Source: an uncultured virus (IMG/VR IMGVR_UViG_3300017761_002881) (taxonomy: Duplodnaviria; Heunggongvirae; Uroviricota; Caudoviricetes). From it: a stretch of 64,000 bases of DNA. The stretch lies in IMG/VR virus record IMGVR_UViG_3300017761_002881; one strand, written 5' to 3'. Below, piece by piece: positions 6,006 to 24,827 of this stretch. The translations under genes and the position numbers were made by a program. Every line of letters begins with the position of its first letter. Positions within the stretch are counted from its first letter, which is position 1. The notes beneath the pieces were generated by a model. That model was not told where the DNA came from. It saw only the letters and a program-made list of their open reading frames with translations, and did no database searches.

Positions 6006-6006
6006 A

Positions 6007-7300: not shown

Positions 7301-7302
7301 TG

Positions 7303-9099: not shown

Positions 9100-9155
9100 A
9101 GTTCACACGTCCAATGAAAGATTTTTATATAAATATCTTGCAGGGACTGTATCTA

Positions 9156-10394
9156 TTACACACGTTCGATACTATATGATAAGGCTTTACTAGTATGAGC
9201 TATTTGATTAGGTATTGCTGAGAAAAACATATAATACTCTGTGCTAGTCATATCAGCGGTAAACTCAGAGATAGGTAAAGTAGTTGCAATGTCGTCAGTT
9301 GTAGATGTAGAACCAGAATTCATAAATCGTAGTTTACTGCCATCGTAACTTAAATCTCGTTTTATTCCGACATATCTAACAGCTGATGATGCAGTAACAT
9401 TGGCAATGAGATTAGTTAATGACCCAGATACATCACTGAAATTATCAGTATTGGCTATGTATATGCGATATCTTGCAGTATCAGTTGTTGTTTGATCTAT
9501 TCTATAGTGTACACGTATTACATCATCATTAGTAAAAGTTCCGGCTATAATTTGTTGTGTATACACTAACACTTCATCTCCTTTACTAGCAGGTGCAGGT
9601 ATGGTGGTACGTGTACCTCTAAATAATCCTAATCTGAGGTTACCATCAAATCTACCAGTGAAAGAACCAGTACCTGTAAGTGTACTACCGTCATATGTTA
9701 ATGCAGATACTCCACCAAAATTAGTACCATTTACATTATATTGTATTTCGTTTGTATTGCCTGCAGGCGTTACTCCAAGTGCCGTTAAGGCGTAGCTAGC
9801 TGTTAAAGCATTTACAGCACAACTAGCAGTAGTAAGTAGTCTATCTAAAGAAGATGAGTAGTGTAAAATTCCAGTTGATGAGACAAAAGGAGTTGTATAT
9901 ACTGAACCAGATGAGCCGAATGGTGCATTTCCTGATCTATAAAAAGGAAGAATATATACATTACTACCGTCTTCGATAGTACCTAGTAGACTGCCCGATA
10001 TACGACCTATTCTAGTGAAGTTAGCATAACTTGAAGTTCCACTAAATTGACTAGAAACAGATCCTGTCCAAGAATTAAAACTAGAGGTTAATAGGTAATC
10101 GGGGGCAAAGGACGCTGTTAAAGCATTTATTGCCTGACTACTCGTTATCTGATAGGTTCCTACTGGCAGAGAAGATGCGGTTAAAGCGTTTCTAGCCCAA
10201 CTACCAGTCCCTTGCAGGCTACCAGTAAATGAGTTAGCAACAACGTTACCGGATACGGTAACAGATCCAGTAAATACAAATGACCCGCTAAGATTTAGTG
10301 AACCAGTCCCATTAGCTGTAAATTGTTTTGAAACTTCTAGAGTTCGTAAGGCAGCATCACTGCCGGATGTAATGACTTTTTTCCAATTTGGCAT
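9156..10394 (-). CDS. Virion fibre / decoration protein
   Basis: MPNWKKVITSGS N-terminus, ALTAS repeats, EIQYN fibre module, S/T/G-rich. Confidence 0.65.
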   Translation of the reverse strand: MPNWKKVITSGSDAALRTLEVSKQFTANGTGSLNLSGSFVFTGSVTVSGNVVANSFTGSLQGTGSWARNALTASSLPVGTYQITSSQAINALTASFAPDYLLTSSFNSWTGSVSSQFSGTSSYANFTRIGRISGSLLGTIEDGSNVYILPFYRSGNAPFGSSGSVYTTPFVSSTGILHYSSSLDRLLTTASCAVNALTASYALTALGVTPAGNTNEIQYNVNGTNFGGVSALTYDGSTLTGTGSFTGRFDGNLRLGLFRGTRTTIPAPASKGDEVLVYTQQIIAGTFTNDDVIRVHYRIDQTTTDTARYRIYIANTDNFSDVSGSLTNLIANVTASSAVRYVGIKRDLSYDGSKLRFMNSGSTSTTDDIATTLPISEFTADMTSTEYYMFFSAIPNQIAHTSKALSYSIERV

Positions 10395-10469
10395 AATACG
10401 CTTTGTTTTTGCGGTAGGTGATCGTTAATGATCCCACTTCCTGTTACGGCCAACAAAAATCAAAATATA

Positions 10470-10649
10470 TTAATTATATTTTTGATATTGATTCTGCAGT
10501 TTAATTACTATGTTAAATACAGTTTCCAATTGTTCACCAGTAAACGAAGCACGTTTCAATGCTAACAATAGAAACTCTAATTCTTCTTTTGTTAATGAAT
10601 TGTCTGGCTCTTTGGCTTTATTACTAATTATTTTATCTATTAATCCCAT
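10470..10649 (-). CDS. Small hypothetical protein (likely start MGLIDK)
   Basis: Downstream ATG at 10649 avoids the overlap with 10669..11883; helical 59-aa product. Confidence 0.6.
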   Translation of the reverse strand: MGLIDKIISNKAKEPDNSLTKEELEFLLLALKRASFTGEQLETVFNIVIKLQNQYQKYN

Positions 10650-10668
10650 AACCGTTAACTTTATTTTA

Positions 10669-11883
10669 TTATACATAAATCCAAATTGATTCATCACTAG
10701 AATTAATATACATGTTACCATAACCAGCACTAGCTGATCCATATGTCGGAGGCAATGTAGGCGCGACAGACGATTGTTTAGCAGTTACAAGATATTCATC
10801 AGGTGTAGCTTCATCGGCTAATTCACTTAATGATGACGTTACGGCCCATCTAGGCGATGAAGCATTAGTGACATTCGCGCCATCCATAAATAATGCATAA
10901 CCAGAACCGGTAGCTTTACCGCTATTAACTGCAAATCGATTTTGTACAACAATACCACCGTCTATATTTTGATTCAATGAACTAGAACCTAACAATATAA
11001 ATCGGTCAGCTACAGTTAAATTTTGAGTTGTAACTGTTGTAGTAGTACCGTTAACTTGCAAATTACCATTCAATGTCAAATTTTGCATCGTGGTAGTGGT
11101 AGCGTTACCACCAATGGCTATTGCAGTTGTACCGTTAGTACTATTAGCAATATTAAATGCAGCTGCAGTCGTTGTAATATCACCGCCATTAACTGCCAAA
11201 TCTCCATTCAATACAATATTATCAGCTAACTTAATTCCAATCTTACCATCAGCACTACCGACAGTAGTCGTAATGTTACTAGAACCGCTAAATATTAAAG
11301 GAACGGTTGCTAATGATACAGTGCCAGTTGTAGTATCTGATCCAGATATGGTTAATGTACCACCATTAGAATTAAGTGCATAACTAGCAGTAATAGCTAA
11401 TGATGCTGTAGCGGCAAATGAGGCTGTACCAACAAATCCAATATATCCTGCAATTTGTCCAGCCGGAATATTATAAACAGTAGAGTTAACACTAGTTAAT
11501 GCATTTGTTGCACCTAGTTGCGGATCAACTTTAATTGTAGTGGCACTACCGGCCCCAGGATCCGGTAATAAATTATTACCAGCAATATCTCCTAACAAAG
11601 CATTTAACGTAATTGATCGATTGCCAGCTGAGGTATTAACATAGAAATCATCTGTTGGTCCTAAATCTGTAACTGCAGTACTTGGAAATGCAGCAACTAC
11701 ACCAGTTAAGTTACTACCATCACCGCTAAATGAACCACTAAATGATCCTGATAATCTAGTATTGGATACGCCGGTACCCACTACGTTAAAAGCAGTACTA
11801 CCTACGGTTACGGTAGTGTCGGCTGTTACAGTTGTTAACGCTGCCGATGACCCAGAGACTAAGACTTTTTTCCATGTTCCCAT
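10669..11883 (-). CDS. Virion fibre / decoration protein
   Basis: MGTWKKVLVSGS N-terminus; LTLNGNLQVNGTTTTVTTQNLTVADRFILL fibre motif; S/T/G-rich. Confidence 0.65.
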   Translation of the reverse strand: MGTWKKVLVSGSSAALTTVTADTTVTVGSTAFNVVGTGVSNTRLSGSFSGSFSGDGSNLTGVVAAFPSTAVTDLGPTDDFYVNTSAGNRSITLNALLGDIAGNNLLPDPGAGSATTIKVDPQLGATNALTSVNSTVYNIPAGQIAGYIGFVGTASFAATASLAITASYALNSNGGTLTISGSDTTTGTVSLATVPLIFSGSSNITTTVGSADGKIGIKLADNIVLNGDLAVNGGDITTTAAAFNIANSTNGTTAIAIGGNATTTTMQNLTLNGNLQVNGTTTTVTTQNLTVADRFILLGSSSLNQNIDGGIVVQNRFAVNSGKATGSGYALFMDGANVTNASSPRWAVTSSLSELADEATPDEYLVTAKQSSVAPTLPPTYGSASAGYGNMYINSSDESIWIYV

Positions 11884-11915
11884 GTGCTATTTCCTTTACA
11901 ATTTTATTATAAATA

Positions 11916-12332
11916 TTATAATGAAACGAAAAAATTATCGTTAAAGAATAATATACCACCGGGGTTAGGATTTACAGGTAATGCCGATTGAGTAGCTAAA
12001 AATATACTACCGCTATTAGTTACGGTTACAATATTGTAAGTATTATTATTAATTAAAAAGGGTGTATTTGATACGGATGTTACGGTCACGCCAGGATCGG
12101 ACTGTATGGTACCTAACTTTAATTCGTTATAGTCATTTTTAATTAAAAAGAAATCATCTGTAAATTTAGCTGGGTCATCTACTACTTGAAATTCGCTAGT
12201 AGTAATATTCCAAAAGCTACCGGTAGCAGAAACTGAACCGCTTATAGTTAATGGGCCAGACCCTTCATAAATGCCACCAGGGCCACGTGGTCCTTGTGGT
12301 CCAGGAGTATTTACTATAATAACTCTAGACAT
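11916..12332 (-). CDS. Small structural protein with collagen-like GPQGPRGP
   Basis: N-terminal Gly-X-Y triplets; located in the fibre cluster. Confidence 0.6.
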   Translation of the reverse strand: MSRVIIVNTPGPQGPRGPGGIYEGSGPLTISGSVSATGSFWNITTSEFQVVDDPAKFTDDFFLIKNDYNELKLGTIQSDPGVTVTSVSNTPFLINNNTYNIVTVTNSGSIFLATQSALPVNPNPGGILFFNDNFFVSL

Positions 12333-12712
12333 TATCGAGTTACCTCTTTACTTAATTTGACACATCCTTGTAATATACGTGATACAGTAATACCAGTATG
12401 AATTTCTAAATCATATGCAGCTTCTGTAAAAGATAATAATGATGATGAATAAGCTGAGATATATACGCCTATACTTCCAGATGTGGGAGGTGTTGTGCCG
12501 TTACTACCGCTCATATTAAGACCGGTACCATCACCTCGCAGTGAACTACTTAAAGACAATAAGATTGTATTTGAGTCAGTAGAAGGACGTATCTGCAATC
12601 TTGCCCCATATCCACTAAGATCTACAGGTGTATTTGTACTGTCCTTATACTGAACTTCGAATGTTGTCGTAGCACCTTGTTCTATTATAAACGAGTATTT
12701 ACCAGCCGGCAT
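12332..12712 (-). CDS. Ig-like fibre anchor / adaptor protein (BppU N-terminal-like)
   Basis: IEQGAT...PVDLSGYGARLQIR...YDLEI...RILQG pattern typical of phage fibre-base domains. Confidence 0.6.
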   Translation of the reverse strand: MPAGKYSFIIEQGATTTFEVQYKDSTNTPVDLSGYGARLQIRPSTDSNTILLSLSSSLRGDGTGLNMSGSNGTTPPTSGSIGVYISAYSSSLLSFTEAAYDLEIHTGITVSRILQGCVKLSKEVTR

Positions 12713-12745
12713 AGTGTTCCTTTAAAATATCTTTTCTTATAAATA

Positions 12746-13411
12746 TCAACTATATTCACTTAACATTTTAAATATTTCATCGAGTGCTGCATGCCTATGA
12801 TTGTCAAGTAGTATAATTTTATTTACATACTTAGACTTTTCGATTTTAGGTATCTCATGGAACGCTGAATCATTTTTATATTTTAAATCTATTTGCTGAC
12901 TATCACCTGTAAATATCAAAGTAGAATTAACTCCTAATCTACCTAAACACATATGCAATTGTTGCTTGGATAAATTTTGAAATTCGTCTATAACACATAC
13001 TGCATTTTCAAATGTACGTCCACGGAAGTGAGTTAATGATACCCATTCAATACTATCTTCCATTTCTAATTTTTGTAGTAAATCCGGTTTGTTATATACT
13101 TTACGCATATTGCTACGTATAGGTACTAACCATGGCTCCATTTTTTCTTTTTCCGTACCTGGTAAAAATCCATTATCCTCAGTTGATACAGTCGGCCTTG
13201 TTATAACTATTTTATTGACAGTGCGTTTAAAAAACATATCCAATGCAATCTGTACAGCTAACATTGTTTTGCCGGATCCGGCTTTACCTATAATAAAATT
13301 AATAGGTGTTTGAAGAATGAGCTCCTTTGCTGCTTTCTGTTCATTAGATAATGTAACAGAAAATTTAATATCAGTTTTAGGAGGATTACGGTCGATGTTC
13401 TCTCTTGGCAT
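12746..13411 (-). CDS. phoH: PhoH-family ATPase
   Basis: GKAGSGKT Walker A, ITRP, GFLPG..EKMEPW, RGRTF, IDEFQN, GDSQQIDL. Confidence 0.95.
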   Translation of the reverse strand: MPRENIDRNPPKTDIKFSVTLSNEQKAAKELILQTPINFIIGKAGSGKTMLAVQIALDMFFKRTVNKIVITRPTVSTEDNGFLPGTEKEKMEPWLVPIRSNMRKVYNKPDLLQKLEMEDSIEWVSLTHFRGRTFENAVCVIDEFQNLSKQQLHMCLGRLGVNSTLIFTGDSQQIDLKYKNDSAFHEIPKIEKSKYVNKIILLDNHRHAALDEIFKMLSEYS

Positions 13412-13428
13412 ACATTATCCTATTTAAT

Positions 13429-13436
13429 ATAAATAT
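13429..13436 (-). promoter_or_regulatory. Putative late promoter motif ATATTTAT (phoH)
   Basis: Just downstream of the MCP terminator. Confidence 0.6.
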
Positions 13437-13454
13437 CTACGAGGCCAAAGACAT

Positions 13455-13480
13455 AAAAAAAGGGAGACCTAAGTCTCCCC
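13455..13480 (-). terminator. Rho-independent terminator after the major capsid gene
   Basis: mRNA GGGAGAC-UUAG-GUCUCCC followed by a U7 tract. Confidence 0.85.
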
Positions 13481-13504
13481 TCTTTTAATAGTATTTAGTT
13501 AAGA

Positions 13505-15217
13505 TTATACACGGTTGAGAGCGTGTACAAATACTTTACCATAGAATTCTGGACGTAACATCTTCTTAGCATAACGAGTCATCACACCCTTACGTGGAGT
13601 AAAGTTAGTTGGATCGTACACTAATGGAGTCATAATCAATGGTACATATGGAGCATATACAGCGCCTGTTTCCAGGAACTGGCTACCACGGTAACCCATC
13701 AGAATTGTATTTTCAGTCATGTATGGGTTTTTGTATACTTGGAAGCGGCTATTAATAGCACCAATCTTTTGTACACCCATTGCAAACTGCATTTTATCAC
13801 CATCTGTATCAGCAGCATATCCTGGGATAGACTCTAGAATAGTTGCTACACTTGGAGAACATACTAAGAAGTTTGCTCCACCACGCATAGTCAATTGGTG
13901 AATTTTATTGCTTACTTTTTGGATCTTAGTACCAAGAGTTTGGAACCAAGTACCTTGGTTATAAGCTTGACCGGCGGTCGACCCATCCACAAATTTATTA
14001 GTTGATGCATCAAATACAAAACCAATTTGTGCAGACCAACGCTCAGTTGTTTGAGCATTTTGAATCAACATGTCTAAGATTTCAAGATCAATTTCTTGCG
14101 AAATGTATTCTGACAACATGCTAGTCAATTCAGCTTCAGCATCAATGCTATGATAAGCATTAAGGTCTTGCGCGAATTCAGGTGACCATACAGCCTTCAG
14201 CTTACGTGTCTTAGCAACAATAGCCTCACTACGAAGTTCCAGGTTAATTTCTGGAATAGCAGTAGTATCAGCTAAAGCAGAACCTGCATTATCTTCAAAG
14301 TCACCACGTGTCTGATCATTAGGTTGCTTATGATAAACTACTTCTACAGTATTAGCTGCAACTGGAATAGCTGGAGTAGCAGCAGTCTGAACTAAGAAGT
14401 AAATATGTCCACCTTTTGTAACTGTAAATTCTGGGAAGATGGTAGTAATACCTGATCCAGAAACATTAAATGCGCGCACACCCTTCAGATCTGGAGTAGT
14501 TAATGAACCAGTCTCTACTTGAAGTACTTGGAATACTTGGCTACCGCCAGCTGCAGATGCTGCTGATGCAGAAAATTCTGAGTTAAAATTAGTAAATAAA
14601 TCTAACTGTATGCCCGTCAGTCCAGATACGCCTACAGTAAATGTATTAGTAAATGGATTATAAGAACCAGTACTGTAATTAGTAGCTCCTAATACAGCAT
14701 TTACATCATTAATAGTATAACCAAAACGTCCTGGGCCATAAAGACCTTCGCTAGGAGCGCTAGTACCACGATCTGCATCAGTAACACCGAATACAGAATC
14801 AGCTTGCGATGTACGACCTTGACCTGTTAAGAAGTCATTGCCTTGTGCTGAACTAAAACCATTAGTGCCTTGTGCAGTACCATATTTGAAATCCAAGAAG
14901 AACACAAGTCCTGATGGAAGATTCATTGGTTGTACACTAACGAAGTCTTTTGCAGCAATTTCTGCAAAAATACGACGAACTAATGGTAAAGCTACGCCAG
15001 CCCATTGCTCAGCGTTAGCTTGGTTTTGTGTAGTAGCGTTAGCTTCTGTTACCAATTGCTTAGCTTGGTTTTCCAAAAGTACAGCCATACCACGACGGTC
15101 ATTCTCATTAGCAATGCCTTCCAACAAACCGGTCTTTTGCCACTTCTTTTCAAGTGCCAATGCTGCCGAATGCTGTGTAGCTTGTGCTTCATGAGGTAAT
15201 AAAGAATTTAAATTCAT
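13505..15217 (-). CDS. Major capsid protein (T4 gp23-like)
   Basis: LPLVRR, VSVQPMNLPSGLVF, AKTRKLKAVWSPEFAQDLNAYHSIDAEAEL, YAPYVPL, FTPRKGVMTRY. Confidence 0.97.
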   Translation of the reverse strand: MNLNSLLPHEAQATQHSAALALEKKWQKTGLLEGIANENDRRGMAVLLENQAKQLVTEANATTQNQANAEQWAGVALPLVRRIFAEIAAKDFVSVQPMNLPSGLVFFLDFKYGTAQGTNGFSSAQGNDFLTGQGRTSQADSVFGVTDADRGTSAPSEGLYGPGRFGYTINDVNAVLGATNYSTGSYNPFTNTFTVGVSGLTGIQLDLFTNFNSEFSASAASAAGGSQVFQVLQVETGSLTTPDLKGVRAFNVSGSGITTIFPEFTVTKGGHIYFLVQTAATPAIPVAANTVEVVYHKQPNDQTRGDFEDNAGSALADTTAIPEINLELRSEAIVAKTRKLKAVWSPEFAQDLNAYHSIDAEAELTSMLSEYISQEIDLEILDMLIQNAQTTERWSAQIGFVFDASTNKFVDGSTAGQAYNQGTWFQTLGTKIQKVSNKIHQLTMRGGANFLVCSPSVATILESIPGYAADTDGDKMQFAMGVQKIGAINSRFQVYKNPYMTENTILMGYRGSQFLETGAVYAPYVPLIMTPLVYDPTNFTPRKGVMTRYAKKMLRPEFYGKVFVHALNRV

Positions 15218-15237
15218 TTTGATTCCTCTTTGTTTTT

Positions 15238-16104
15238 TTACTTAAGATTAGCTAATTTCTTCCAACGAGCTGCCAATTCAAATCCTTCGCTAAGAATTTC
15301 TTTCTTAGGAGCTGTAGATTTGCCGGCTGGCTTTGAAGCATAGCTTTCTTTAATTTGTTGTTTTTTCTTAGCGCCTACGCTGCCGAATGATTCACATAAA
15401 GTGCTATAAACTAATTTTACTTCACGGATTGAAGCAGCACGATCAAAGTTTTCAATAACTTTCATTTTTTGTGATTCGTTCAACGAATAGTTTCTAAATA
15501 ACTTGTTTGAAAATAACAATTTTGCATTTAGAAGATTTACTTCGTTAAGCTTAGACTTCATAAAGCGAATAACACGATAAGCTTCTTTAAGATCTTCAGA
15601 TTCCTCTTCGCCTTCAGCTACAGGATCTTCGTCTTCATCTTCGCCTTCGGTTACTGGCTCTTCTTCGGTGTCATCGTCTTCTTCACGAAGTGCACGGATG
15701 ATTTCTTCGATGTTAACATCTTCTTCCTCTTCCATGGCAGGCTCTACTGATACTTCGGCATCAGCTTCTTCCTCTTCTTCCATAGTAGTCTCTTCCATTT
15801 CGCCTTCCAATTCACGGATAATAGATTCAAGATCTAAATCTTCTTCCATTTCCATTTCATCTTCTTCTTCGATAGCTGGACCAGCTGTTGGAGTGCCGTC
15901 TTCTTCGTTTTCGTAGCCTTCAGTTGGCATTTCTTCCTCTTCTTCTTCCATTGTATCCTCTTCAGCCTCTTCAGCTAAACGAGCAGATAACATACTTTGA
16001 AGACGTGGAGTGAATGCCTCTTCTAATGCAATTTTAGCATTTGCCATTGCTGTCTCACGTACAGCTTTAGCATCTGCAATTGCCTCTTTTAACAGATTGT
16101 TCAT
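15238..16104 (-). CDS. Prohead core / scaffold protein (gp22-like)
   Basis: Highly acidic coiled coil directly upstream of the MCP gene; many [IL]-x-E sites. Confidence 0.85.
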   Translation of the reverse strand: MNNLLKEAIADAKAVRETAMANAKIALEEAFTPRLQSMLSARLAEEAEEDTMEEEEEEMPTEGYENEEDGTPTAGPAIEEEDEMEMEEDLDLESIIRELEGEMEETTMEEEEEADAEVSVEPAMEEEEDVNIEEIIRALREEDDDTEEEPVTEGEDEDEDPVAEGEEESEDLKEAYRVIRFMKSKLNEVNLLNAKLLFSNKLFRNYSLNESQKMKVIENFDRAASIREVKLVYSTLCESFGSVGAKKKQQIKESYASKPAGKSTAPKKEILSEGFELAARWKKLANLK

Positions 16105-16131
16105 GAGTTCTCCTCTTATTTAATTCGGAAA

Positions 16132-16200
16132 TAAGATTATTAGTAATCTTAATAGATAGATTGAATAATGTTGAGTGACTGTATATTAGACTGATACAGT
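16132..16200 (-). promoter_or_regulatory. Two stem-loops in the scaffold/MCP 5' leader, both containing CUAAUA
   Basis: Perfect inverted repeats TAAGATTA/TAATCTTA (16132-16151) and ACTGTAT/ATACAGT (16178-16200). Confidence 0.55.
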
Positions 16201-16254
16201 ATCGTATAACAAATATATATATGCCTATGGAAAATAAAACAATCCTATGATAGT

Positions 16255-16281
16255 AAAAAAGGTGCCGTAAAGACACCTTTT
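16255..16281 (-). terminator. Rho-independent terminator after the bS21 gene
   Basis: mRNA AAAAGGUGUC-UUUAC-GGCACCUUUUUU hairpin with U tract. Confidence 0.8.
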
Positions 16282-16299
16282 CATTTAAACTTTTTCAAT

Positions 16300-16557
16300 T
16301 TAAGAATTTCTCTCAGTTGCTCGTTGTGCTAAATACAAAGCTCGTTCGTTTTGTGCGTGACGAGTTACATTAGGCTTTTCGTAGTAAGTACGGTCTTTCA
16401 ATTGCTCTAAAACCCTACCATCTTTCAACTGCTTCTTCCAACGACGCAATGCAAATGATAAATCAGCACGATCATTTACACGTACTACACGAGTACCGTT
16501 AGGAGTACCCGGAATGATACTCTCAAAATATTTTTGTTTCTTATTCATGTAATTCAT
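16300..16557 (-). CDS. rpsU: Phage-encoded 30S ribosomal protein bS21 with N-terminal extension
   Basis: VRV...LSFALRRWKKQLKDGRVLEQLKDRTYYEKP matches the bS21 pattern (ALRRFKR...R.YYEKP); location beside capsid genes fits known bS21 phages. Confidence 0.88.
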   Translation of the reverse strand: MNYMNKKQKYFESIIPGTPNGTRVVRVNDRADLSFALRRWKKQLKDGRVLEQLKDRTYYEKPNVTRHAQNERALYLAQRATERNS

Positions 16558-16576
16558 ATAACTTATTTAATTTAAT

Positions 16577-16608
16577 ACAATATAATAACTTTAATTTATA
16601 AAAACAAA
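16577..16608 (-). promoter_or_regulatory. Host-type (Bacteroidota-like) promoter for bS21
   Basis: Coding strand TTTG-N20-TATATTGT. Confidence 0.6.
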
Positions 16609-16621
16609 AATAATTACTTAT

Positions 16622-16849
16622 TTATTCATTATCCAATGCATTCTCTACAGCTTCGTCAAAAGCTGTTTCTAAATCATTAGATTCTAGCATCTCTTTAACT
16701 GAATCGAGCAACTCTAAAGCTTCTTTTACTTGTTTACGTTGCAATAATTTAATTAAATAATCTAAATTTTCACCTGGGCGGCGATAATTTTCATTTAACA
16801 CTTTTTTAATTTCTTCGCGAATAAGCTTTCTAAATTCGTTTGTCTTCAT
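16622..16849 (-). CDS. Probable internal head protein
   Basis: N-terminal MKTNEFRKLIREEIKKVLNE leader shared with 27289..27657. Confidence 0.6.
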   Translation of the reverse strand: MKTNEFRKLIREEIKKVLNENYRRPGENLDYLIKLLQRKQVKEALELLDSVKEMLESNDLETAFDEAVENALDNE

Positions 16850-17262
16850 TTTAATGCCTCATTTACTTTGTAATACTTATTAAGTACCGAACCAATATCT
16901 TCATAAGCAGCTTCTAAGCGTTGCTGCATGCCTGACATTTCACCTGCAGTCTTTTCAAACACTTTATAAGCCTCTTGCAATTGTTTCATATGACGAGAAA
17001 CTGTTACATTATCAAACCAATGTTCTGATTCTTGCAATGTTACATTTTCTGCCATTTCAACAATACCGCCTAATGTACTAGCTACTTCTTTTAAAGTATT
17101 GGCACGGTAAATCATTTCGCCTAGGCGATGATAATTAGCTACTGCTTCTAAAAAAGCTTTTTTATCTTCTTTAGTCATTTCAGGCATATCATCTTCTTCT
17201 TCGCGAAGATACTTTTCATTTAAAATGTTTTTCAACATTTTTGCTTCCCAATGTTTTGACAT
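16846..17262 (-). CDS. Head-cluster helical protein (possible prohead core component)
   Basis: LNE/LREE/LQE sites; within the head operon; GGAGG SD. Confidence 0.6.
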   Translation of the reverse strand: MSKHWEAKMLKNILNEKYLREEEDDMPEMTKEDKKAFLEAVANYHRLGEMIYRANTLKEVASTLGGIVEMAENVTLQESEHWFDNVTVSRHMKQLQEAYKVFEKTAGEMSGMQQRLEAAYEDIGSVLNKYYKVNEALK

Positions 17263-17621
17263 TACAACCCTCCGTAAGCTTGCTTTATAATTTTAGCAAC
17301 GCCTTTAAGATTTTTTTCAGCAGCCTGTGAATAACGTCCTAACTGCGTCATCCATTGACGATACTCTGGTAATCCTTCGGCGTCAGCAGTCATTTCTAGT
17401 TCATAACCAAATTCATCAGTTAAATCTCCTAACATGTTCATAATTTCATCTAGTTGTGCTTGAAATTCTTTACGACGATCACTGCCTGGCTCAGCTTCAT
17501 TAACTGTACGTTTACCAGTAGCAATACCCGCCTTACCAAAACTTTCTTTAATCAAGCCCTTGTCATCAGACATAGGCTTGCCAGCGAATAGTTGATTATA
17601 TTTATCTTTTAAACTTTTCAT
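17262..17621 (-). CDS. Head-cluster hypothetical protein
   Basis: LIKE and VNE sites; stop overlaps the next start. Confidence 0.6.
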   Translation of the reverse strand: MKSLKDKYNQLFAGKPMSDDKGLIKESFGKAGIATGKRTVNEAEPGSDRRKEFQAQLDEIMNMLGDLTDEFGYELEMTADAEGLPEYRQWMTQLGRYSQAAEKNLKGVAKIIKQAYGGL

Positions 17622-17651
17622 AAGTAAAAAAATTATTGAGTTAATACTGGT

Positions 17652-17927
17652 TTACTGGTTATAAGGCGCTTGTTGAAGTGGAAGGTTACCGAATGGATCG
17701 ACAACACTACCGTTACCCGCCTGTCCGACAGGATTAGTAGGACCTAACAAACTAGCGCCGGCTGCATCTGTTAAGCTATCAAAAATACCTACACCTGTTT
17801 TAGGATTACCTAATTGCATGTTTTCTAACGGTTCTGCATTTACTCCAGTAGTATATCCAGTACCTTTAGCGCCTATAGGATTGTTAGGGCCTATTTGTGA
17901 TGTGTTTGCTAAATCTATGAGTGCCAT
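17652..17927 (-). CDS. Small G/P/N-rich protein with an internal duplication
   Basis: LIDLANTSQIGPNNPIGAKGTG vs LTDAAGASLLGPTNPVGQAGNG; GGGAG SD. Confidence 0.6.
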   Translation of the reverse strand: MALIDLANTSQIGPNNPIGAKGTGYTTGVNAEPLENMQLGNPKTGVGIFDSLTDAAGASLLGPTNPVGQAGNGSVVDPFGNLPLQQAPYNQ

Positions 17928-17928
17928 A

Positions 17929-18534
17929 TTAAAACTCCCTTATAATTTCTGAAATTAAACGATTAATATTATCATATTTTGTGTTAATTGATTTGTCAGT
18001 CGATTCATTTACTGGAGATAAAAATGCTCCATGTGTTGATGGATTACTAACAAAATCAAAAGCTATTAATTCGAAGTCAGGTTGTACTTCCATAGCACTA
18101 CCAGCTTCGCGCATTACCTCTTTTACCGAACCTAACCCCCGTGATGAAATACCTAACTTAATTCCGGATTGGAATAATGCTTTAAGTATATTACCAGCTG
18201 GTGTAGGAAGTACTTCTACAGTACCTACCAAATCTTTTCCGCGCCATGCCATTTCTAAAATGTTATGACTAACGTTATTTAAGTTAACAACTGAAGAATC
18301 TGGATGATCTAATTCTCCTAATGCTCGACGCTCTGTTATATAACTTTCGTTATACTTTTTAGCTTCACGCATTAATGTTTCCATCGGATAAACACGACCA
18401 TTATGATTTTTAGCTTCAGCTCGTTGAAGTACGCCCTGAACAATTAAACGACCACCATTATTAGCTAATGATTCATTTATCTGTTGAGGAGATACTTCGA
18501 ATACATTATAATCTATAAGAAGTTGTTTGTCCAT
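17929..18534 (-). CDS. Prohead protease (T4 gp21-like)
   Basis: NHNGRVYP, ALGELDHP, VSH, GISSRGLGS, FDFVSNPST. Confidence 0.95.
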   Translation of the reverse strand: MDKQLLIDYNVFEVSPQQINESLANNGGRLIVQGVLQRAEAKNHNGRVYPMETLMREAKKYNESYITERRALGELDHPDSSVVNLNNVSHNILEMAWRGKDLVGTVEVLPTPAGNILKALFQSGIKLGISSRGLGSVKEVMREAGSAMEVQPDFELIAFDFVSNPSTHGAFLSPVNESTDKSINTKYDNINRLISEIIREF

Positions 18535-18689
18535 TACATTCCCTTCATAAATAAACCAGAATTAATATAATCCTGTTCCATTTGCCAACGCTTACGCTCA
18601 TCCGCATATTTGCGTTTAGCTTCTTGCAGAGTTAGTTTGACATTCTCAGGTGCTTTGGCAAATTGCTGCCATGTTCTATTAGGTACCAT
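18534..18689 (-). CDS. Unannotated 51-aa protein
   Basis: Manual translation MVPNRTWQQFAKAPENVKLTLQEAKRKYADERKRWQMEQDYINSGLFMKGM; TAATG overlaps at both ends. Confidence 0.7.
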   Translation of the reverse strand: MVPNRTWQQFAKAPENVKLTLQEAKRKYADERKRWQMEQDYINSGLFMKGM

Positions 18690-19336
18690 TATTTTGAAAG
18701 TTCTTTTAATCTGTTAGAAATTCTAACAATACGTTCGTTAATTTTATTTATACGAGCGCTTGTCTGTTTCCAAAACTGTGATGAATCTACACCCGTTTCA
18801 TTTTTTAAACGTAAATTGTTATGAACAACTTTTTCAATTTCGGCTAACATACGGTTAACTTCCATTATACCTTTGTTAACTTTTTGTGATGGTGAAGCTG
18901 ATTCATCTTTTTTGTATTGACGATATGATACTGCCTCATCTAAACTAGGTTCAGATACGCCGTACATTTCTGACATCATTTTTTTATATGAAGATTTTGA
19001 TTCCATAGGGCGAAATACTTTATTAGTTTTTTTAACTCGCTTCATACCCATTGCTTCAATAGTATCATCATCAGCTTTACCAAAAGCTTTTGGCGTCATA
19101 TATCCAGCTACACCTCCGGTACTCGACATTTCATCTATTTCTTCTTCTTCATCCATCTTAGCAACTTTGCCTAAACGTTTATGAAGATACTTATCAGAAG
19201 AATCCGTATCGCCGTCATTATCTAAATCTTTATCGTCTAGATCTTTAAATTTAGACTTAGCTTCTTTGTCAGAAACGTTATCTACGCCTTCCATTAAACG
19301 TTTAAAGCTTTTTTCTATATCTTTAAATAAACCCAT
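18689..19336 (-). CDS. Probable prohead core / internal protein with DxDxDG loop
   Basis: DLDNDGDTDSSDKYLHKR; EMSSTGGVAGYMTPKAF; LME/IDE/LDE sites. Confidence 0.6.
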   Translation of the reverse strand: MGLFKDIEKSFKRLMEGVDNVSDKEAKSKFKDLDDKDLDNDGDTDSSDKYLHKRLGKVAKMDEEEEIDEMSSTGGVAGYMTPKAFGKADDDTIEAMGMKRVKKTNKVFRPMESKSSYKKMMSEMYGVSEPSLDEAVSYRQYKKDESASPSQKVNKGIMEVNRMLAEIEKVVHNNLRLKNETGVDSSQFWKQTSARINKINERIVRISNRLKELSK

Positions 19337-19662
19337 TAGATTCCTTGCTTTTTGAGTACGTATACAGTAGCGCCAGTTCCGCCAGTTAGTCGACTAACTG
19401 ATAAATCATATACTACCCCTGCAGCTAAATCTCCTAACGGTATCTGGCCACCAGCGGAAAGACTAGCTGTAGCTCCACCTGCTGTTCTTACAATAACACT
19501 ACCGTAGCCATAATTAGACCCTGTTAAATCTAATTGGCCGGTAGTATATGTAAGTGCTGAATAATATTTACCTGGATGACCTAAACGCTCGAATTGATCC
19601 GGTCCGTTATTACCGGATGGTGCATCGTAATTATATGGATAAGTTCCTACCTGTGATCCCAT
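19336..19662 (-). CDS. Small beta-rich structural protein (possible capsid decoration)
   Basis: G/T/Y-rich 108 aa in the head operon; function inferred from context only. Confidence 0.5.
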   Translation of the reverse strand: MGSQVGTYPYNYDAPSGNNGPDQFERLGHPGKYYSALTYTTGQLDLTGSNYGYGSVIVRTAGGATASLSAGGQIPLGDLAAGVVYDLSVSRLTGGTGATVYVLKKQGI

Positions 19663-20510
19663 TACTTACCTTTAACTTTATTTAATTCAGAAACTAATTC
19701 GTAATAACGAAGCATTGTCAATACATCTTTATCTTCAATAACATGTTTTTTAGACAAAGAAGATAACAAATTAGATACTTCATTTAATTTGATACGTAAT
19801 ACTTTACTAGGTATTGAAGTTTTCAATGTCTTTAATTGCTCACTAATAGACTTAGCTTCTTTAATTACATAATCCTTCAATGATGTAGAATTACTAACTG
19901 TATTAATATATTGACGTAACAAAGACTTTTGTTCAGTAGTCAATTGACTAGAATATTTTTCATTGAAACGATCTACAATTATTTTTGAAGCTAAGATACG
20001 TACATCCTTATTTTCTGATTCTAACATAGGCTTGGTAGCTTCTGTTTTGTTAGGTATGGTACGTACATGTTCCAATAGTGCAAATTTAGTTTCTACATAT
20101 TCCTTTGGGTCATCTGCTTCAGCAAATTCTAATAATTTATAAATACTAGCATGTATTCTATAATTGTTTACTCGAGCCTTAAAAAAATCTTCAATATCAT
20201 AAGCTGATCGTATCTCTTTAATAAGATTGAACTTTTCACGCTTAATAGATGTTTCGTTGATCGTTTTCTTAGACTTTATAACTGCAGTCAGGAATGCATG
20301 TGCTTTAGCATCCGAATTAAATTTTTCTTCGTGTACTGCGCGATATAGTTTAAGTTCTTTATTTAACTCGGTATTGTTATTAAAATTCTTCTTAATAATT
20401 TGTAAAGCTTTAGACCGAGTACCGTTCATTGTATCGGCAGCAACTTGACGTACGAGTAACTCGAAAATTAAACCTGTATTTTTTACTTTTGAATGTTTAA
20501 TTCGGCTCAT
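19662..20510 (-). CDS. Head-cluster protein downstream of portal
   Basis: IKHSKVKNTGLIFELLVRQ N-terminus; helical; late motif and SD upstream. Confidence 0.65.
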   Translation of the reverse strand: MSRIKHSKVKNTGLIFELLVRQVAADTMNGTRSKALQIIKKNFNNNTELNKELKLYRAVHEEKFNSDAKAHAFLTAVIKSKKTINETSIKREKFNLIKEIRSAYDIEDFFKARVNNYRIHASIYKLLEFAEADDPKEYVETKFALLEHVRTIPNKTEATKPMLESENKDVRILASKIIVDRFNEKYSSQLTTEQKSLLRQYINTVSNSTSLKDYVIKEAKSISEQLKTLKTSIPSKVLRIKLNEVSNLLSSLSKKHVIEDKDVLTMLRYYELVSELNKVKGK

Positions 20511-20579
20511 AGTGTTACGTTTCCTTTTATGTATACGCCTTTTTAATAAATATATATATCACTGTAAAATATCATAATC

Positions 20580-22475
20580 TTAATCATTTAGTGATAATAA
20601 TTGCGATTCGTCTAATAATGTTCCCGCATCCGGATCAACATGGCTTTTATCTAGTGATTCTTGTATTATACTAGAACTTTTAAAGTTATTAGACAATGAT
20701 TTAATTAATGCTTTTGATTCTGTTGATTCGATACTTAAGGCGGAACTTTTACGGAATGTATGTTGTAACGGATCTGTTTTAGGACTACCATTAAATGTAG
20801 CACTAAGATCCTTAGCTCCTAACGGATCACGTCCATGCGGACTAGAATGCTTACCCCATGTACTAACATCTTTAGGACGGCCAGGTCCTGCAACATGTTC
20901 TTGTTCCATGCCAGGTAATAATTCTCCTTTGGTAGCTACGTGCATTGAAGCTATGTCATGCGGTGTACCAAAACTCATATTTGTCTTTCTAGGATCATTA
21001 CCTTCGTCAACTATTTGTTTGCGTCGGAACTGAGTTTTAAGATCTTCTATAACATTATCTTGTTCAGACTTCCATTCATGTTGAGACATATCAAAAATGT
21101 TTTCATAAATCCATTGTTCCGAAAACATTTGAGACTCGCGCATTTTACCAGCTAATTCAATTTTAGTGGTTAATGATTCCAATTGCTGCTTTTCGTAAAT
21201 GAGCGAAGGATTATTTAAAGTCAATGAAAATCCGATTAGATCTTCATCACGGAATCCTTGAGCATATAAATGTATAATAGCAATCTTAGTTAATTCTGAA
21301 ACAAATATTTTTTGAATACGTTCGATTGTTCTAGCGAAACGTACATCTTCTGCTGCTAATGTAGCTTTACCTTCTACACCTTCATCATATCCTAAAAATG
21401 CTTTTGGTATTTTTAAAGCAGCATGAAGTTTATTACGTAAATATTCAATATCTTCGATTTGACCTTCGTTAGTCAATCCAGCCAATGTTTCAATTGCAGT
21501 ACCAGACTCTCCACCACGAACTGGTAGATAATAGTCTTCCATCATGTTTTGCAAATTGAACTTAAGGTTATAATCACCTGTTTGTTCATTCATATATGGA
21601 ACCTTTTTCATCTTGTTCATGATTTGGTTCATATAGTTATCAACTTCATGTGGTGGTATATTGCCTACATCTATTTTGAAAATACGACGTTCTGGAGCTC
21701 TCATTATACGTTGAATAAGCATTGCATCTTCCATTAATGATAATTGCTTAAACAATTTACGCCCTGACTCGATCATTGACTTACCGTACGGTAAAAAGTT
21801 TGTATCAGATAACAAACGGAAGTGTGCCATTTGAAAACTTTCAAATTCACTACGGTTTGGCTTACCGGCAAAATTAGCATACGTACCACTCGGCCCTTCA
21901 ATTATAAATCGATATGCATACGGATTTTCTGGATCATAACCATCTTCACGACGAACTTCGTATGCCGATAACGGTGTTACGTTAATGATACCTAATTCAT
22001 CTTCGATATCTAAATGTAAAAAGAAGTCACCATACTTACATGCGTTACGCACCCATGGCCATAGATTATAGTCTATATTAATGATATCGTAAAATAAATT
22101 ATGTAATACTTTACGTACTTCTTCGTTAGATGTAGCAATAGCTAAAGTATCACCCTCAGCATTTTTAACTGTAGATTCATCTGCGTAAATATCTAATGCC
22201 GATGCAATGATTGGATCCATATCCATGGCTTCATAATCGGTAAATAATTCTAATTTAGAAGAATGAAAATTGTATGTTTGGTTATATGTAGCATAACCAG
22301 ACTGACCTCTATGTAATCCAGTAAATCTATCGATATAACTGTTACTAGAAAGCGATCCGTTAGATTGTAACCTATTTGTATCAACCGCTTTTAAACGATT
22401 TTTAGCGATACGTCTTACAATTACATTAGTAGAAAATAGCCGTTTTAATCTGGCTTGTAATGAAGTGTCTGCCAT
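20580..22475 (-). CDS. Portal protein (T4 gp20-like)
   Basis: YEAMDMDPIIASALDIYADE, LMEDAMLIQRIMRAPERRIFKIDVGN, EDYYLPVRG, LKIPKAFL. Confidence 0.96.
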   Translation of the reverse strand: MADTSLQARLKRLFSTNVIVRRIAKNRLKAVDTNRLQSNGSLSSNSYIDRFTGLHRGQSGYATYNQTYNFHSSKLELFTDYEAMDMDPIIASALDIYADESTVKNAEGDTLAIATSNEEVRKVLHNLFYDIINIDYNLWPWVRNACKYGDFFLHLDIEDELGIINVTPLSAYEVRREDGYDPENPYAYRFIIEGPSGTYANFAGKPNRSEFESFQMAHFRLLSDTNFLPYGKSMIESGRKLFKQLSLMEDAMLIQRIMRAPERRIFKIDVGNIPPHEVDNYMNQIMNKMKKVPYMNEQTGDYNLKFNLQNMMEDYYLPVRGGESGTAIETLAGLTNEGQIEDIEYLRNKLHAALKIPKAFLGYDEGVEGKATLAAEDVRFARTIERIQKIFVSELTKIAIIHLYAQGFRDEDLIGFSLTLNNPSLIYEKQQLESLTTKIELAGKMRESQMFSEQWIYENIFDMSQHEWKSEQDNVIEDLKTQFRRKQIVDEGNDPRKTNMSFGTPHDIASMHVATKGELLPGMEQEHVAGPGRPKDVSTWGKHSSPHGRDPLGAKDLSATFNGSPKTDPLQHTFRKSSALSIESTESKALIKSLSNNFKSSSIIQESLDKSHVDPDAGTLLDESQLLSLND

Positions 22476-22490
22476 GTATATTATTTATTT

Positions 22491-22498
22491 ATAAATAT
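22491..22498 (-). promoter_or_regulatory. Putative late promoter motif ATATTTAT (portal)
   Basis: In the 22-bp terminase-portal gap. Confidence 0.6.
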
Positions 22499-24072: not shown

Positions 24073-24081
24073 AAATAACCA

Positions 24082-24826: not shown

Positions 24827-24827
24827 A

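What the first reader, a model, noticed from the sequence alone, without database searches (positions are those of the whole stretch)
15218..16608. Possible ribosome-reprogramming switch: phage bS21 plus Shine-Dalgarno motifs concentrated on virion genes
Seen: about 35 mostly structural/late starts have an SD-like AAGG/AGGAG/GGAGG roughly 5-13 nt upstream. Examples: both sheaths (AGGAG), scaffold (GAGGAG), MCP (AGAGGA), gp6-like (AGGAG), and starts at 2256, 3147, 4854, 11883, 12712, 17262, 19336, 19662, 20510, 25657, 27657, 29374, 36227, 43875, 44559, 55291, 55596, 56987 and 61222. Genes behind host-type promoters have A-rich, SD-less leaders: bS21 (AAATAAGTTATATG), uvsE (AAATAAGTTATG), primase (AAGATAATAAATG). 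bS21 has its own host-type promoter and terminator and an ~20-aa N-terminal extension. Established: Bacteroidota largely do not use SD pairing because the 16S anti-SD is held in a bS21/bS18/bS6 pocket, and bS21-encoding phages of Bacteroidota are known. Inference: an SD-independent phage bS21 replaces the host protein, frees the anti-SD and biases ribosomes toward SD-bearing late mRNAs. Caveats: the host is inferred; portal, terL and some baseplate genes lack a clear SD; the sigma gene and 58043 have one; the phage protein seems to keep the C-terminal Tyr (AQNERALY) implicated in anti-SD sequestration.
Basis: partly seen in the sequence, partly recalled or inferred. Interest (0 to 1): 0.85.

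Follow-up and report, generated by a model that had tools for sequence, protein, structure and literature searches.

The report
Phage bS21 travels with Shine-Dalgarno late genes
A T4-like phage that probably infects Bacteroidota, whose ribosomes normally ignore Shine-Dalgarno sites, carries its own ribosomal protein bS21 and puts such sites on its virion genes, which gives phage bS21 a testable job without proving it.

Summary
The window is the late region of a T4-like myovirus. ORF 16300-16557 (-) is a real bS21 (Pfam E=1.7e-9) with its own promoter-like element, an SD-less leader and a terminator. Of 66 gene starts, 32 pair with the anti-SD at -4.5 kcal/mol or better, against about 10% of control sites. 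The motifs peak at -14 to -7 and favour the virion block (29 of 52 against 3 of 14).

Relatives with bS21 in the head block carry SD motifs on 486 of 865 genes. Relatives without it carry them on 24 of 224. Two bS21-less, SD-less clades each have a bS21+/SD+ sister.

The link is not proven. bS21 changes only about four times on the tree, six rows have bS21 without SD, and four fragments show the reverse. The protein keeps the Tyr that sequesters the anti-SD, so "frees the anti-SD" is untested. The Bacteroidota host is inferred.

Phage bS21 is published. I found no paper on the SD coupling. This scan noted the same theme earlier on other DNA.

The parts
16300..16557 (-). Phage bS21 gene (rpsU-like), 85 aa: a core of the Bacteroidia type plus an N-terminal extension of 18-21 aa (MNYMNKKQKYFESIIPG...)
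   Evidence: Pfam PF01165 E=1.7e-9. PHROG 21469. Best solved match is F. johnsoniae bS21 7jil_z, with residues 24-77 aligned to 3-56 and Tyr75 on Tyr54. The clade profile scores two Tyr-bearing bS21 chains (9i5v_9 54.1 bits, 7jil_z 51.0 bits) above all others (next 43.2 bits; the commonest bS21 chain of 71 residues, 365 entries, 32.5 bits).
16577..16636 (-). Promoter-like region of bS21: TTG-N21-TAttTTTG (16636..16605), overlapping TTTG-N20-TATATTGT (16607..16577)
   Evidence: Pattern matches. A TTTG-like element, 19-21 nt, then a TATATT-like element is present upstream of bS21 in 31 of 34 distinct relatives. That this is the -33/-7 promoter type of Bacteroidota is recalled knowledge. No transcript start was mapped.
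16558..16576 (-). SD-less, A/T-rich leader of bS21 (...AAATTAAATAAGTTAT-ATG)
   Evidence: Pairing energy +0.1 kcal/mol. 33 of 34 distinct relatives also lack an SD here, and 26 of 34 end in (A/T)AGTT(AT/AC).
16250..16282 (-). Intrinsic-terminator-like hairpin and U-tract directly after the bS21 stop codon
   Evidence: strand folding gives an 11-bp stem, -14.6 kcal/mol, z=-4.5, and 0 of 200 shuffles fold as well. The consensus terminator scan did not list it.
15238..16104 (-). Acidic scaffold-like protein gene with a strong SD (GAGGAG at 16110-16115)
   Evidence: ORF. SD pairing -9.0 kcal/mol. The position matches the acidic gene before the MCP in phage immuto. No family hit.
13505..15217 (-). 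Major capsid protein (gp23 family) with SD AGAGGA at 15224-15229
   Evidence: Pfam Gp23 E=2.4e-79. SD pairing -5.9 kcal/mol. Its orthologues in bS21-less G002 and immuto have A-rich leaders without an SD.
103..57755 (-). Virion and morphogenesis gene block (sheath, head, portal, TerL, protease, baseplate, fibres). 29 of its 52 starts are SD-led and about 19 carry an upstream (A)TATTTAT(A/T) late-promoter-like motif.
   Evidence: PHROG and Pfam annotation. SD energies. Class test 29 of 52 against 3 of 14, Fisher p=0.034. Late-motif sites 12-35 nt before starts. Primase, SbcCD-like, endonuclease I, PhoH and bS21 lie inside this span and were counted as non-virion.
58795..59409 (-). Phage ClpP-like protease, a possible accessory of the same programme (a lead only)
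   Evidence: Pfam CLP_protease E=1e-29. Found in 4 of 7 bS21+ records searched (G005, Mel-JY01, G007, LR756508). The three without a hit are 47-72% complete. Found in 0 of 3 bS21-less records (G002, G003, immuto).

Best explanation
The phage runs a two-stage translation programme in a host whose ribosomes do not read Shine-Dalgarno sites. bS21 is a self-contained cassette in the head-gene block, with a host-type promoter, an SD-less A/T-rich leader and its own terminator, so unmodified host RNA polymerase and ribosomes can express it. The protein is a Bacteroidia-type bS21 with an added basic N-terminal extension. It is inferred to enter host 30S subunits. Ribosomes carrying it (or ribosomes in cells that make it) are inferred to use the short AAGGA/GGAG sites that precede about half of the virion genes, which would favour late phage mRNAs over SD-less host mRNAs.

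Shown here: the gene, its signals, the SD enrichment and its bias to virion genes, and the co-distribution of the two traits among relatives.

Inferred: incorporation into ribosomes, any change in the state of the anti-SD, and causality.
For: 1. The SD sites are real and placed as working SDs. 32 of 66 starts pair, against about 10% of controls, with a peak at -14 to -7.

2. They are biased to late genes. Window: 29 of 52 against 3 of 14, p=0.034. Complete bS21+ genome G005: 22 of 67 against 14 of 133, p=1.9e-4, where the outside rate of 10.5% equals the background of 12.3%. Mel-JY01: 27 of 68 against 39 of 182, p=0.006.

3. bS21-less relatives have none. G002: 3 of 163. Immuto: 11 of 228. The unrelated Flavobacterium phage 11b: 1 of 64. 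No S21 was found in immuto, in G015 (both complete) or in G002 (82% complete).

4. The same genes differ between genomes. Of 27 window genes with a G002 orthologue, 13 are SD-led in the window and 1 in G002. For immuto the figures are 11 and 1 of 21. The late-promoter motif and the short leaders are shared, so leader length does not explain the difference.

5. Pooled IMG/VR loci: 486 of 865 genes in 47 bS21+ loci against 24 of 224 in 15 bS21-less loci. In the wider set 101 of 111 distinct rows are concordant. Two bS21-/SD- clades (31 and 11 rows) each have a bS21+/SD+ sister.

6. bS21 itself is SD-less in 33 of 34 distinct relatives, as the maker of a switch should be.

7. Published biochemistry. 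F. johnsoniae ribosomes read only a very strong SD unless bS21 is lost or the platform pocket is mutated, and ribosomes without bS21 work poorly on SD-less mRNAs (Arpin 2026, abstract and passages; McNutt 2023, abstract in the listing and discussion passages).
Against: 1. The window's bS21 keeps Tyr75 and Leu76, the equivalents of the Tyr54 and Ile55 that hold the anti-SD in F. johnsoniae, and has a weakly basic tail. 18 of 20 aligned clade members have Tyr or Phe at this position. Chen 2022 read this feature as meaning that phage bS21 blocks the anti-SD like the host protein.

2. bS21 is not sufficient. Six rows have bS21 without SD: LR756508/L256, L212/L208/L249 and L187.

3. Four loci (L117, L196, L200, L217) show SD fractions of 0.31-0.46 without bS21 in the head block. 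Their contigs are 10-28% complete, so a bS21 elsewhere is not excluded, as happens in the complete G014.

4. bS21 changes only 4 times and SD 7 times on the tree. There are 4 independent pairs and the sign test cannot reach significance. The earlier 85-row tree gave 2 supported pairs.

5. Neither the N-terminal extension nor the Tyr predicts SD use across the wider family.

6. The host is inferred, and Mel-JY01 is filed under a cyanobacterial host.

7. In Mel-JY01 the bS21 gene itself has an AAAGGA site.
Confidence: 0.45

Rival explanations
1. Host difference. The bS21+/SD+ lineages infect bacteria whose ribosomes read SD sites at least partly, and the bS21-less/SD-less lineages infect SD-blind Flavobacteriia. 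On this reading SD use simply tracks the host, and bS21 is a general translation booster with no tie to SD.
For: The closest cultured bS21+ relative, Mel-JY01, is filed as a Microcystis phage. The traits change on few branches, as a host jump would give. bS21 occurs without SD in several lineages. No direct host evidence was obtained.
Against: Early genes of bS21+ genomes sit at background SD level: G005 has 14 of 133 outside the late block against a control of 12.3%. That is odd for an SD-reading host. bS21's own leader is SD-less in 33 of 34 relatives. In Mel-JY01, 16 of 32 plus-strand matches to TTG-N17-21-TAnnTTTG fall in the 6% of the genome that is intergenic, many with the same cTTGca...TAnnTTTG form. 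I recall that form as the Bacteroidota promoter type. The clade's bS21 profile is closest to the two solved bS21 chains that carry the signature Tyr.
Confidence: 0.27
2. Host-like mimic (the Chen 2022 model). Phage bS21 substitutes for host bS21 and keeps the anti-SD sequestered. It supplies ribosomes late in infection or selects phage mRNAs through its divergent N-terminal part. The SD-like sites are read by some other route, for example by ribosomes stripped of host bS21 by another phage function such as the ClpP-like protease.
For: The Tyr54 and Ile55 equivalents are retained. Chen 2022 propose substitution with the anti-SD still blocked. McNutt 2023 speculate about a phage protease that targets host bS21. 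ClpP co-occurs with bS21 in 4 of 7 bS21+ records and in 0 of 3 bS21-less records.
Against: It does not explain why SD sites are lost together with bS21 in two clades. ClpP is also present in LR756508, which has no SD. A sequestered anti-SD would leave the conserved, well-placed SD sites without a reader.
Confidence: 0.18
3. The purine-rich AAGGA motif is not an anti-SD partner. It is a signal for something else, such as a phage RNA-binding factor, an RNA-stability element or part of the late transcription start region.
For: The commonest form, AAAGGA, is short and weak at -4.5 to -6 kcal/mol. Many sites lie just downstream of the TATTTATA motif.
Against: The motif keeps a fixed distance from the start codon. 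It also occurs inside operons with no promoter motif nearby, for example before starts 54848, 26388, 25657, 19336 and 3147. Stronger members are canonical GGAG, GAGGAG and AGGAGG. bS21-less relatives keep the late-promoter motif without AAGGA.
Confidence: 0.07

Closest known systems
bS21-encoding freshwater myophages assigned to Bacteroidetes (Chen et al. 2022, ISME Commun 2:31, PMC9723584; abstract and passages read)
   Same: bS21 lies among the TerL, portal, protease and MCP genes. An aromatic residue is kept at the Tyr54 position. A Bacteroidetes host is proposed. The proposed role is substitution into host ribosomes and preferential late translation of phage mRNAs.
   Different: In those clades bS21 is on the strand opposite to the structural genes, whereas here it is on the same strand. 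The passages I read hold no analysis of SD motifs in phage genes: 'motif', 'RBS' and 'ribosome binding' each occur 0 times. That paper infers that the anti-SD stays blocked. I did not read its supplements.
Specialised bS21-deficient ribosomes and rpsU autoregulation in Flavobacterium johnsoniae (Jha 2020 PMC7797042; McNutt 2023 PMC9976891; Arpin 2026 PMC13000457)
   Same: The bS21 status of the 30S subunit decides whether the anti-SD is free, and so which mRNAs are translated. SD-led and SD-less mRNAs respond in opposite ways.
   Different: There the switch is absence of bS21, it serves one host gene with a 13-bp SD, and it is shown by experiment. Here a second, viral bS21 is present, the SDs are short and lie on dozens of genes, and nothing has been tested.
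Virus-encoded bS21 in general, such as Pelagibacter phage HTVC008M (Mizuno 2019 PMC6375957, seen only as a listing and as cited) and huge phages (Al-Shayeb 2020 PMC7162821, passages read)
   Same: A T4-like or large phage carries bS21. [quoted passage not shown]
   Different: Those papers do not tie bS21 to SD content. Al-Shayeb 2020 relate rpS1, not rpS21, to non-canonical SD use. The huge phage LR756508 has bS21 but no SD enrichment.
bS21 paralogues of Francisella tularensis (J Bacteriol 2022, PMC9578407; passages read)
   Same: Swapping one bS21 homologue on the ribosome changes translation of a subset of mRNAs.
   Different: That system is bacterial, not viral, and sits in an SD-using gammaproteobacterium. 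Its mechanism is unresolved.
Flavobacterium phage vB_FspM_immuto (NC_055915) and Microcystis phage Mel-JY01 (PP395634), the closest cultured relatives
   Same: MCP is 57% and 59% identical and TerL 60% and 58%. The head-gene order and the TATTTATA late motif are the same.
   Different: Immuto has no bS21 and 4.8% SD. Mel-JY01 has an annotated RpsU in the same slot and SD sites on 27 of 68 late genes. Its bS21 lacks the Tyr. I found no paper that names Mel-JY01.

Membership tests
Ribosomal protein bS21 (Pfam PF01165) | Sequence match above the curated cut-off | tested here: met
   37.7 bits against a cut-off of 27, E=1.7e-9, residues 25-73. 24 solved bS21 chains match at E<0.005.
Ribosomal protein bS21 (Pfam PF01165) | Two-helix fold and binding to the 30S platform | not tested
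   The structure prediction tool took no jobs. Binding cannot be tested with these tools.
Bacteroidia-type bS21 (Jha 2020) | Signature Tyr54 (stacks on A1534) followed by Ile55 | tested here: met
   Tyr75-Leu76 align with Tyr54-Ile55 of 7jil_z. 18 of 20 aligned clade members have Tyr or Phe there.
Bacteroidia-type bS21 (Jha 2020) | C-terminal part less basic than in other phyla | tested here: met
   There are 4 Lys/Arg from core position 27 to the end in the window, against 11-17 in four of the five bS21 forms of SD-less relatives and 6 in the fifth, L187. This is a rough count, not the published logo.
Bacteroidia-type bS21 (Jha 2020) | Sequesters the anti-SD on the ribosome | not testable with these tools
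   Needs cryo-EM or SD-reporter assays.
bS21 myophage clades of Chen et al. 2022 | bS21 co-located with the TerL, portal, protease and MCP genes | tested here: met
   Gene order is TerL, portal, protease, bS21, scaffold, MCP.
bS21 myophage clades of Chen et al. 2022 | bS21 encoded on the strand opposite to those genes | tested here: not met
   All 66 genes, bS21 included, are on the minus strand. In the relatives it is on the MCP strand.
bS21 myophage clades of Chen et al. 2022 | Membership of their TerL clades and a Bacteroidetes host shown by CRISPR spacer | not tested
   Their genomes were not among the records reached here.
Shine-Dalgarno-led initiation | Complementarity to the 16S 3' end at a fixed distance from the start codon, enriched over background | tested here: met
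   48% against about 10%. The spacer between motif and ATG is mostly 4-8 nt, with seven at 10-11 nt.
Shine-Dalgarno-led initiation | The sites are actually paired with the anti-SD during initiation | not testable with these tools
   Needs ribosome profiling, toeprinting or reporters.
T4-like myoviruses | gp23-type MCP, gp20-type portal, gp17-type TerL, gp21-type protease, sheath and baseplate wedge genes | tested here: met
   Pfam Gp23 E=2.4e-79. PHROGs 213, 2, 207, 23, 219 and 261.

The most novel reading that the evidence does not exclude
A virus changes the mRNA-selection rule of its host's ribosome by swapping one small protein. On this reading the phage bS21, made early from an SD-less message, turns SD-blind Bacteroidia ribosomes into SD-reading ones. 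Late phage mRNAs would then win, and SD-less host mRNAs would lose. In the lineage of this window the N-terminal extension may override the retained Tyr. That would make it a temporal translational switch and a host shut-off in one step.
Probability: 0.3. Interest if true: 0.92.

Novelty: new variant of a known kind. Interest (0 to 1): 0.75.

Why it matters
[quoted passage not shown] Its function there is still a matter of proposals.

This window and its relatives turn a vague idea ('favours phage mRNAs') into a specific, checkable one: bS21-bearing phages of SD-blind hosts put SD sites on their late genes, and relatives that lack bS21 lack the sites.

The tools to test it exist. They include F. 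johnsoniae genetics, SD and SD-less reporters, and cryo-EM of its ribosome. There are also two cultured relatives that differ in the trait, immuto and Mel-JY01.

If the idea holds, it would be a natural case of a virus re-specifying start-site selection. It would also give a handle for orthogonal translation in Bacteroidota.

Tried and rejected
Host identification failed. The window's genome is not held. Megablast against phages found nothing. Two scans of genome contigs, with a bS21 alignment and with ClpP, found no relative. The protein atlas gave only viral clusters for bS21 and UvdE. The window has no tRNA and no Rfam match.

The bS21 of LR756508 found no relatives in viral contigs. tblastn with the window's bS21 alone missed Mel-JY01, L031, L035, L070 and L071, so they looked like exceptions until an HMM found their bS21.

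An AU test of whether immuto and the nested bS21-less clade form one group did not finish. The later FastTree places them apart. Structure prediction took no jobs, so the extension was not modelled. No complex prediction was sent, because RNA cannot be a partner and the host proteins are unknown.

No bS18 or bS6 gene was found in 5 bS21+ records.

Ideas rejected:
- Short late leaders force SD use. bS21-less relatives have the same promoter motif and leader lengths.
- Low GC explains SD loss. SD+ loci span 31-39% GC.
- The lost Tyr or the N-terminal extension is the determinant.

RNA-library contigs from four runs cover MCP, scaffold and bS21. Contigs cannot show level, strand or ends, so I draw no conclusion on timing. 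crAssphage, called by a recalled accession number, was not in the collection.
Full report
WHAT IS THERE

The window is the late region of a T4-like myovirus with 36% G+C, and every gene lies on the minus strand. Family searches name these genes:
- gp23-type major capsid protein, 13505-15217
- prohead protease, 17929-18534
- portal, 20580-22475
- large terminase, 22498-24072
- tail sheath, 103-1917
- baseplate wedge proteins, 52387-54848
- primase, an SbcCD-like nuclease, endonuclease I, PhoH, UvdE, an HD protein and a ClpP-like protease

Between the protease and an acidic scaffold-like gene (15238-16104) lies ORF 16300-16557, 85 aa. It matches Pfam Ribosomal_S21 at E=1.7e-9, above the curated cut-off.

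THE bS21 CASSETTE

Upstream of the gene are TTG-N21-TAttTTTG (16636..16605) and an overlapping TTTG-N20-TATATTGT. A TTTG-like element, 19-21 nt, then a TATATT-like element recurs upstream of bS21 in 31 of 34 distinct relatives. I recall, and did not test, that TTG/TAnnTTTG is the promoter type of Bacteroidota.

The leader (...AAATAAGTTAT-ATG) has no SD. That holds in 33 of 34 relatives.

Directly after the stop codon an 11-bp hairpin with a U-tract folds at -14.6 kcal/mol, z=-4.5. The gene therefore looks like a self-contained unit inserted in the head operon.

The protein's residues 24-77 align with residues 3-56 of F. johnsoniae bS21 (7jil_z). Tyr75-Leu76 fall on Tyr54-Ile55, and 18-21 extra residues precede the core. 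A profile of 20 clade members scores two solved bS21 chains that carry this Tyr (9i5v_9, 54.1 bits; 7jil_z, 51.0 bits) well above all others. The next is 43.2 bits, and the commonest bS21 chain of 71 residues, in 365 entries, scores 32.5 bits. The tool does not give the organism of 9i5v.

THE SD OBSERVATION

Of 66 starts, 32 (48%) pair with ACCUCCUUU at -4.5 kcal/mol or better. The controls give 10.6% of 1447 other ATGs on the same strand, 9.8% of 3300 shuffled leaders and 6.2% of 1035 ATGs on the other strand. AGG, GGA and GAG triplets pile up at -14 to -7. AAGGA precedes 18 genes where 0.8 is expected. 42 of 66 starts have an SD 4-mer, against 203 of 1447 control ATGs.

The sites also occur inside operons with no promoter nearby, so they belong to the start codon and not to the promoter.

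An (A)TATTTAT(A/T) motif lies 12-35 nt before about 19 starts. It is also present in the relatives, which fits a late promoter. That role is inferred.

SD sites favour the virion block: 29 of 52 against 3 of 14 other genes, Fisher p=0.034. I drew the classes from annotation and position before counting, and the non-virion class is small.

The closest cultured relatives are Flavobacterium phage immuto (MCP 57%, TerL 60% identical) and 'Microcystis phage' Mel-JY01 (59%, 58%).

Immuto has the same head-gene order but no bS21 anywhere. Only 11 of its 228 starts are SD-led, below its own background of 20%.

Mel-JY01 has an annotated RpsU in the same slot. SD sites lead 27 of 68 of its late-block genes against 39 of 182 others, p=0.006.

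From 80 IMG/VR loci found with the MCP, every locus with an SD fraction of 0.33 or more has bS21 1.0-1.8 kb upstream of the MCP, once an HMM replaced tblastn. Pooled, 486 of 865 genes in 47 bS21+ loci carry an SD 4-mer, against 24 of 224 genes in 15 bS21-less loci.

Whole records agree:
- G005 is complete and bS21+. It has 22 of 67 SD-led genes in the late block against 14 of 133 outside, p=1.9e-4.
- G002 is 82% complete with no S21. It has 3 of 163.

Gene by gene, 13 of 27 window genes with a G002 orthologue are SD-led in the window and 1 in G002. For immuto the figures are 11 and 1 of 21. For Mel-JY01 they are 14 and 15 of 31, and for G005 18 and 8 of 39. The unrelated Flavobacterium phage 11b has 1 of 64.

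HOW FAR THIS GOES

On an 85-row MCP tree the bS21-less loci form one tight clade. That clade sits inside a well-supported clade of otherwise bS21+/SD+ rows.

I then widened the sample with the MCPs of immuto and LR756508. Loci with fewer than 10 called genes or an uncovered bS21 slot were left out. The remaining 111 distinct rows split as follows:

| bS21 in head block | SD-led late genes | rows |
|---|---|---|
| yes | yes | 58 |
| no | no | 43 |
| yes | no | 6 |
| no | yes | 4 |

Two bS21-/SD- clades, immuto-like (31 rows) and the nested one (11 rows), each have a bS21+/SD+ sister.

The limits are these:
- bS21 changes only 4 times and SD 7 times on that tree. There are 4 independent pairs, and the sign test cannot reach 0.05. 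The earlier tree gave 2 supported pairs.
- The six bS21+/SD- rows (LR756508/L256, L212/L208/L249, L187) show that bS21 is not sufficient.
- The four bS21-/SD+ rows have SD fractions of 0.31-0.46 and lie on contigs that are 10-28% complete. In the complete G014 the bS21 lies far from the head block. These four are therefore unresolved, not counter-examples.
- For the same reason, 'bS21-less' is secure only for immuto, G015 (both complete) and largely G002.

HOST

No direct evidence was obtained.

Indirect evidence for Bacteroidota:
- Immuto's recorded host is a Flavobacterium.
- The bS21 carries the Tyr that Jha 2020 describe as highly conserved in the phylum, and the clade profile prefers the Tyr-bearing solved chains.
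- The bS21 promoter-like element is of the recalled Bacteroidota type.
- Early genes of bS21+ genomes sit at background SD level.
- In Mel-JY01, 16 of 32 plus-strand matches to TTG-N17-21-TAnnTTTG lie in the 6% of the genome that is intergenic, many as near-identical cTTGca...TAnnTTTG sites 30-55 nt before early genes. G005's early intergenic regions show TTG...TAnnTTTA.

Against it: Mel-JY01 is filed under Microcystis, and these elements also fit a loose -35/-10 reading. I put a Bacteroidota host at about 0.75-0.8.

MECHANISM

Published work shows the following for F. johnsoniae:
- The anti-SD is held by bS21, bS18 and bS6.
- Wild-type ribosomes initiate only on a very strong SD.
- Loss or truncation of bS21, or mutations of the pocket, free the 16S 3' tail.
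- Ribosomes without bS21 work poorly on SD-less mRNAs.

The phage's short SDs (-4.5 to -11 kcal/mol by my measure) should therefore need ribosomes with a freed tail. That step is inference.

A viral bS21 that binds without sequestering the tail would fit. However, this protein keeps the Tyr54 and Ile55 equivalents. Across the wider family, SD+ lineages include forms with Tyr plus extension and forms with neither. The SD- lineages have forms without Tyr. No simple sequence determinant emerges.

The phages carry no bS18 or bS6 gene. A ClpP-like protease co-occurs with bS21: it is in 4 of 7 bS21+ records, where the three misses are 47-72% complete, and in 0 of 3 bS21-less records. It is also present in SD-less LR756508.

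WHAT IS KNOWN

Phage bS21, its N-terminal extensions, its place in head-gene blocks of Bacteroidetes myophages and the idea of selective late translation are all in print. In Chen 2022 the gene is on the opposite strand, so this lineage is not one of their clades as they describe them.

Three full-text searches and passages of Chen 2022, McNutt 2023, Jha 2020, Al-Shayeb 2020 and Arpin 2026 turned up no statement that links phage bS21 to SD-bearing phage genes. I did not read supplements, and subscription papers are not in the library.

This scan has noted the same theme at least nine times on other DNA. One of those notes is marked 'part of it fell', and which part is not told. These notes reached me after my own counts, and they are not independent evidence.

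VERDICT

The co-distribution is real, strong across loci and consistent gene by gene, but it rests on few evolutionary events and has exceptions in one direction. The proposed mechanism is plausible and untested. I file the finding as a new variant of a known kind, namely phage-encoded bS21, with high interest because it makes the function of phage bS21 directly testable.

Noticed in passing
L088-L091 (PP395634, Mel-JY01), e.g. record positions 63040, 64032, 68717, 69086, 69448, 83372, 98278, 111415, 140590, 147201: The phage filed as a Microcystis phage carries about 20 near-identical cTTGca-N20-TAnnTTTG elements before early genes. 16 of 32 plus-strand matches lie in the 6% of the genome that is intergenic. 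I recall this form as the Bacteroidota promoter type, so the recorded cyanobacterial host deserves a check.
   Followed up: partly
window 58795-59409 (-): A ClpP-like protease (Pfam E=1e-29) was found in 4 of 7 bS21+ records searched, where the three misses are 47-72% complete, and in 0 of 3 bS21-less records. It is also present in SD-less LR756508. It could act on host bS21, as McNutt 2023 speculate for phage proteases.
   Followed up: partly
window: about 19 sites, e.g. 2278, 4874, 11915, 12745, 13435, 22497, 29398, 36254, 44584, 55311, 57008 (5' ends on the minus strand): An (A)TATTTAT(A/T) motif lies 12-35 nt before many late-gene starts. It is shared with immuto, Mel-JY01, G005 and G002. 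It is a likely late promoter and reads as the reverse complement of T4's TATAAATA. PhoH (13411) and endonuclease I (40835) also sit behind it.
   Followed up: partly
window 62346-62355 (-) and 10440-10449 (-): The 10-mer CCGTAACAGG occurs exactly twice on the gene strand, both times in long intergenic gaps (before uvsE and before ORF 9156-10394). With one mismatch allowed there are 5 matches against 1.7 expected, and 4 of 100 shuffles reach 5.
   Followed up: partly
window starts 16557, 62268, 40835, 30776 (and bS21 leaders of 26 of 34 relatives): A second start context, (A)ATAAGTT(AT) directly before the ATG, recurs on SD-less genes. ATAAG is 15-fold enriched, before 11 genes. It may be an SD-independent initiation context.
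   Followed up: partly
window 62838-63163, 24592-24827, 10395-10668: Three long intergenic gaps (326, 236 and 274 nt) have no Rfam match and no tRNA. What they hold was not examined further.
   Followed up: no
G014 (contig of L232), positions 211157-211315: In one complete 252.6-kb relative the bS21 gene lies about 100 kb from the head-gene block. Scoring bS21 only next to the MCP therefore under-calls it.
   Followed up: partly
window 13000-20000, RNA-library contigs of runs X6, X7, X8, X10: Contigs from four riverine metatranscriptome libraries cover MCP, scaffold and bS21. The contigs over MCP and scaffold carry roughly 10-fold higher word depth than those over neighbouring head genes. Contigs cannot rank genes, so this is only a hint of late-gene expression.
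   Followed up: partly
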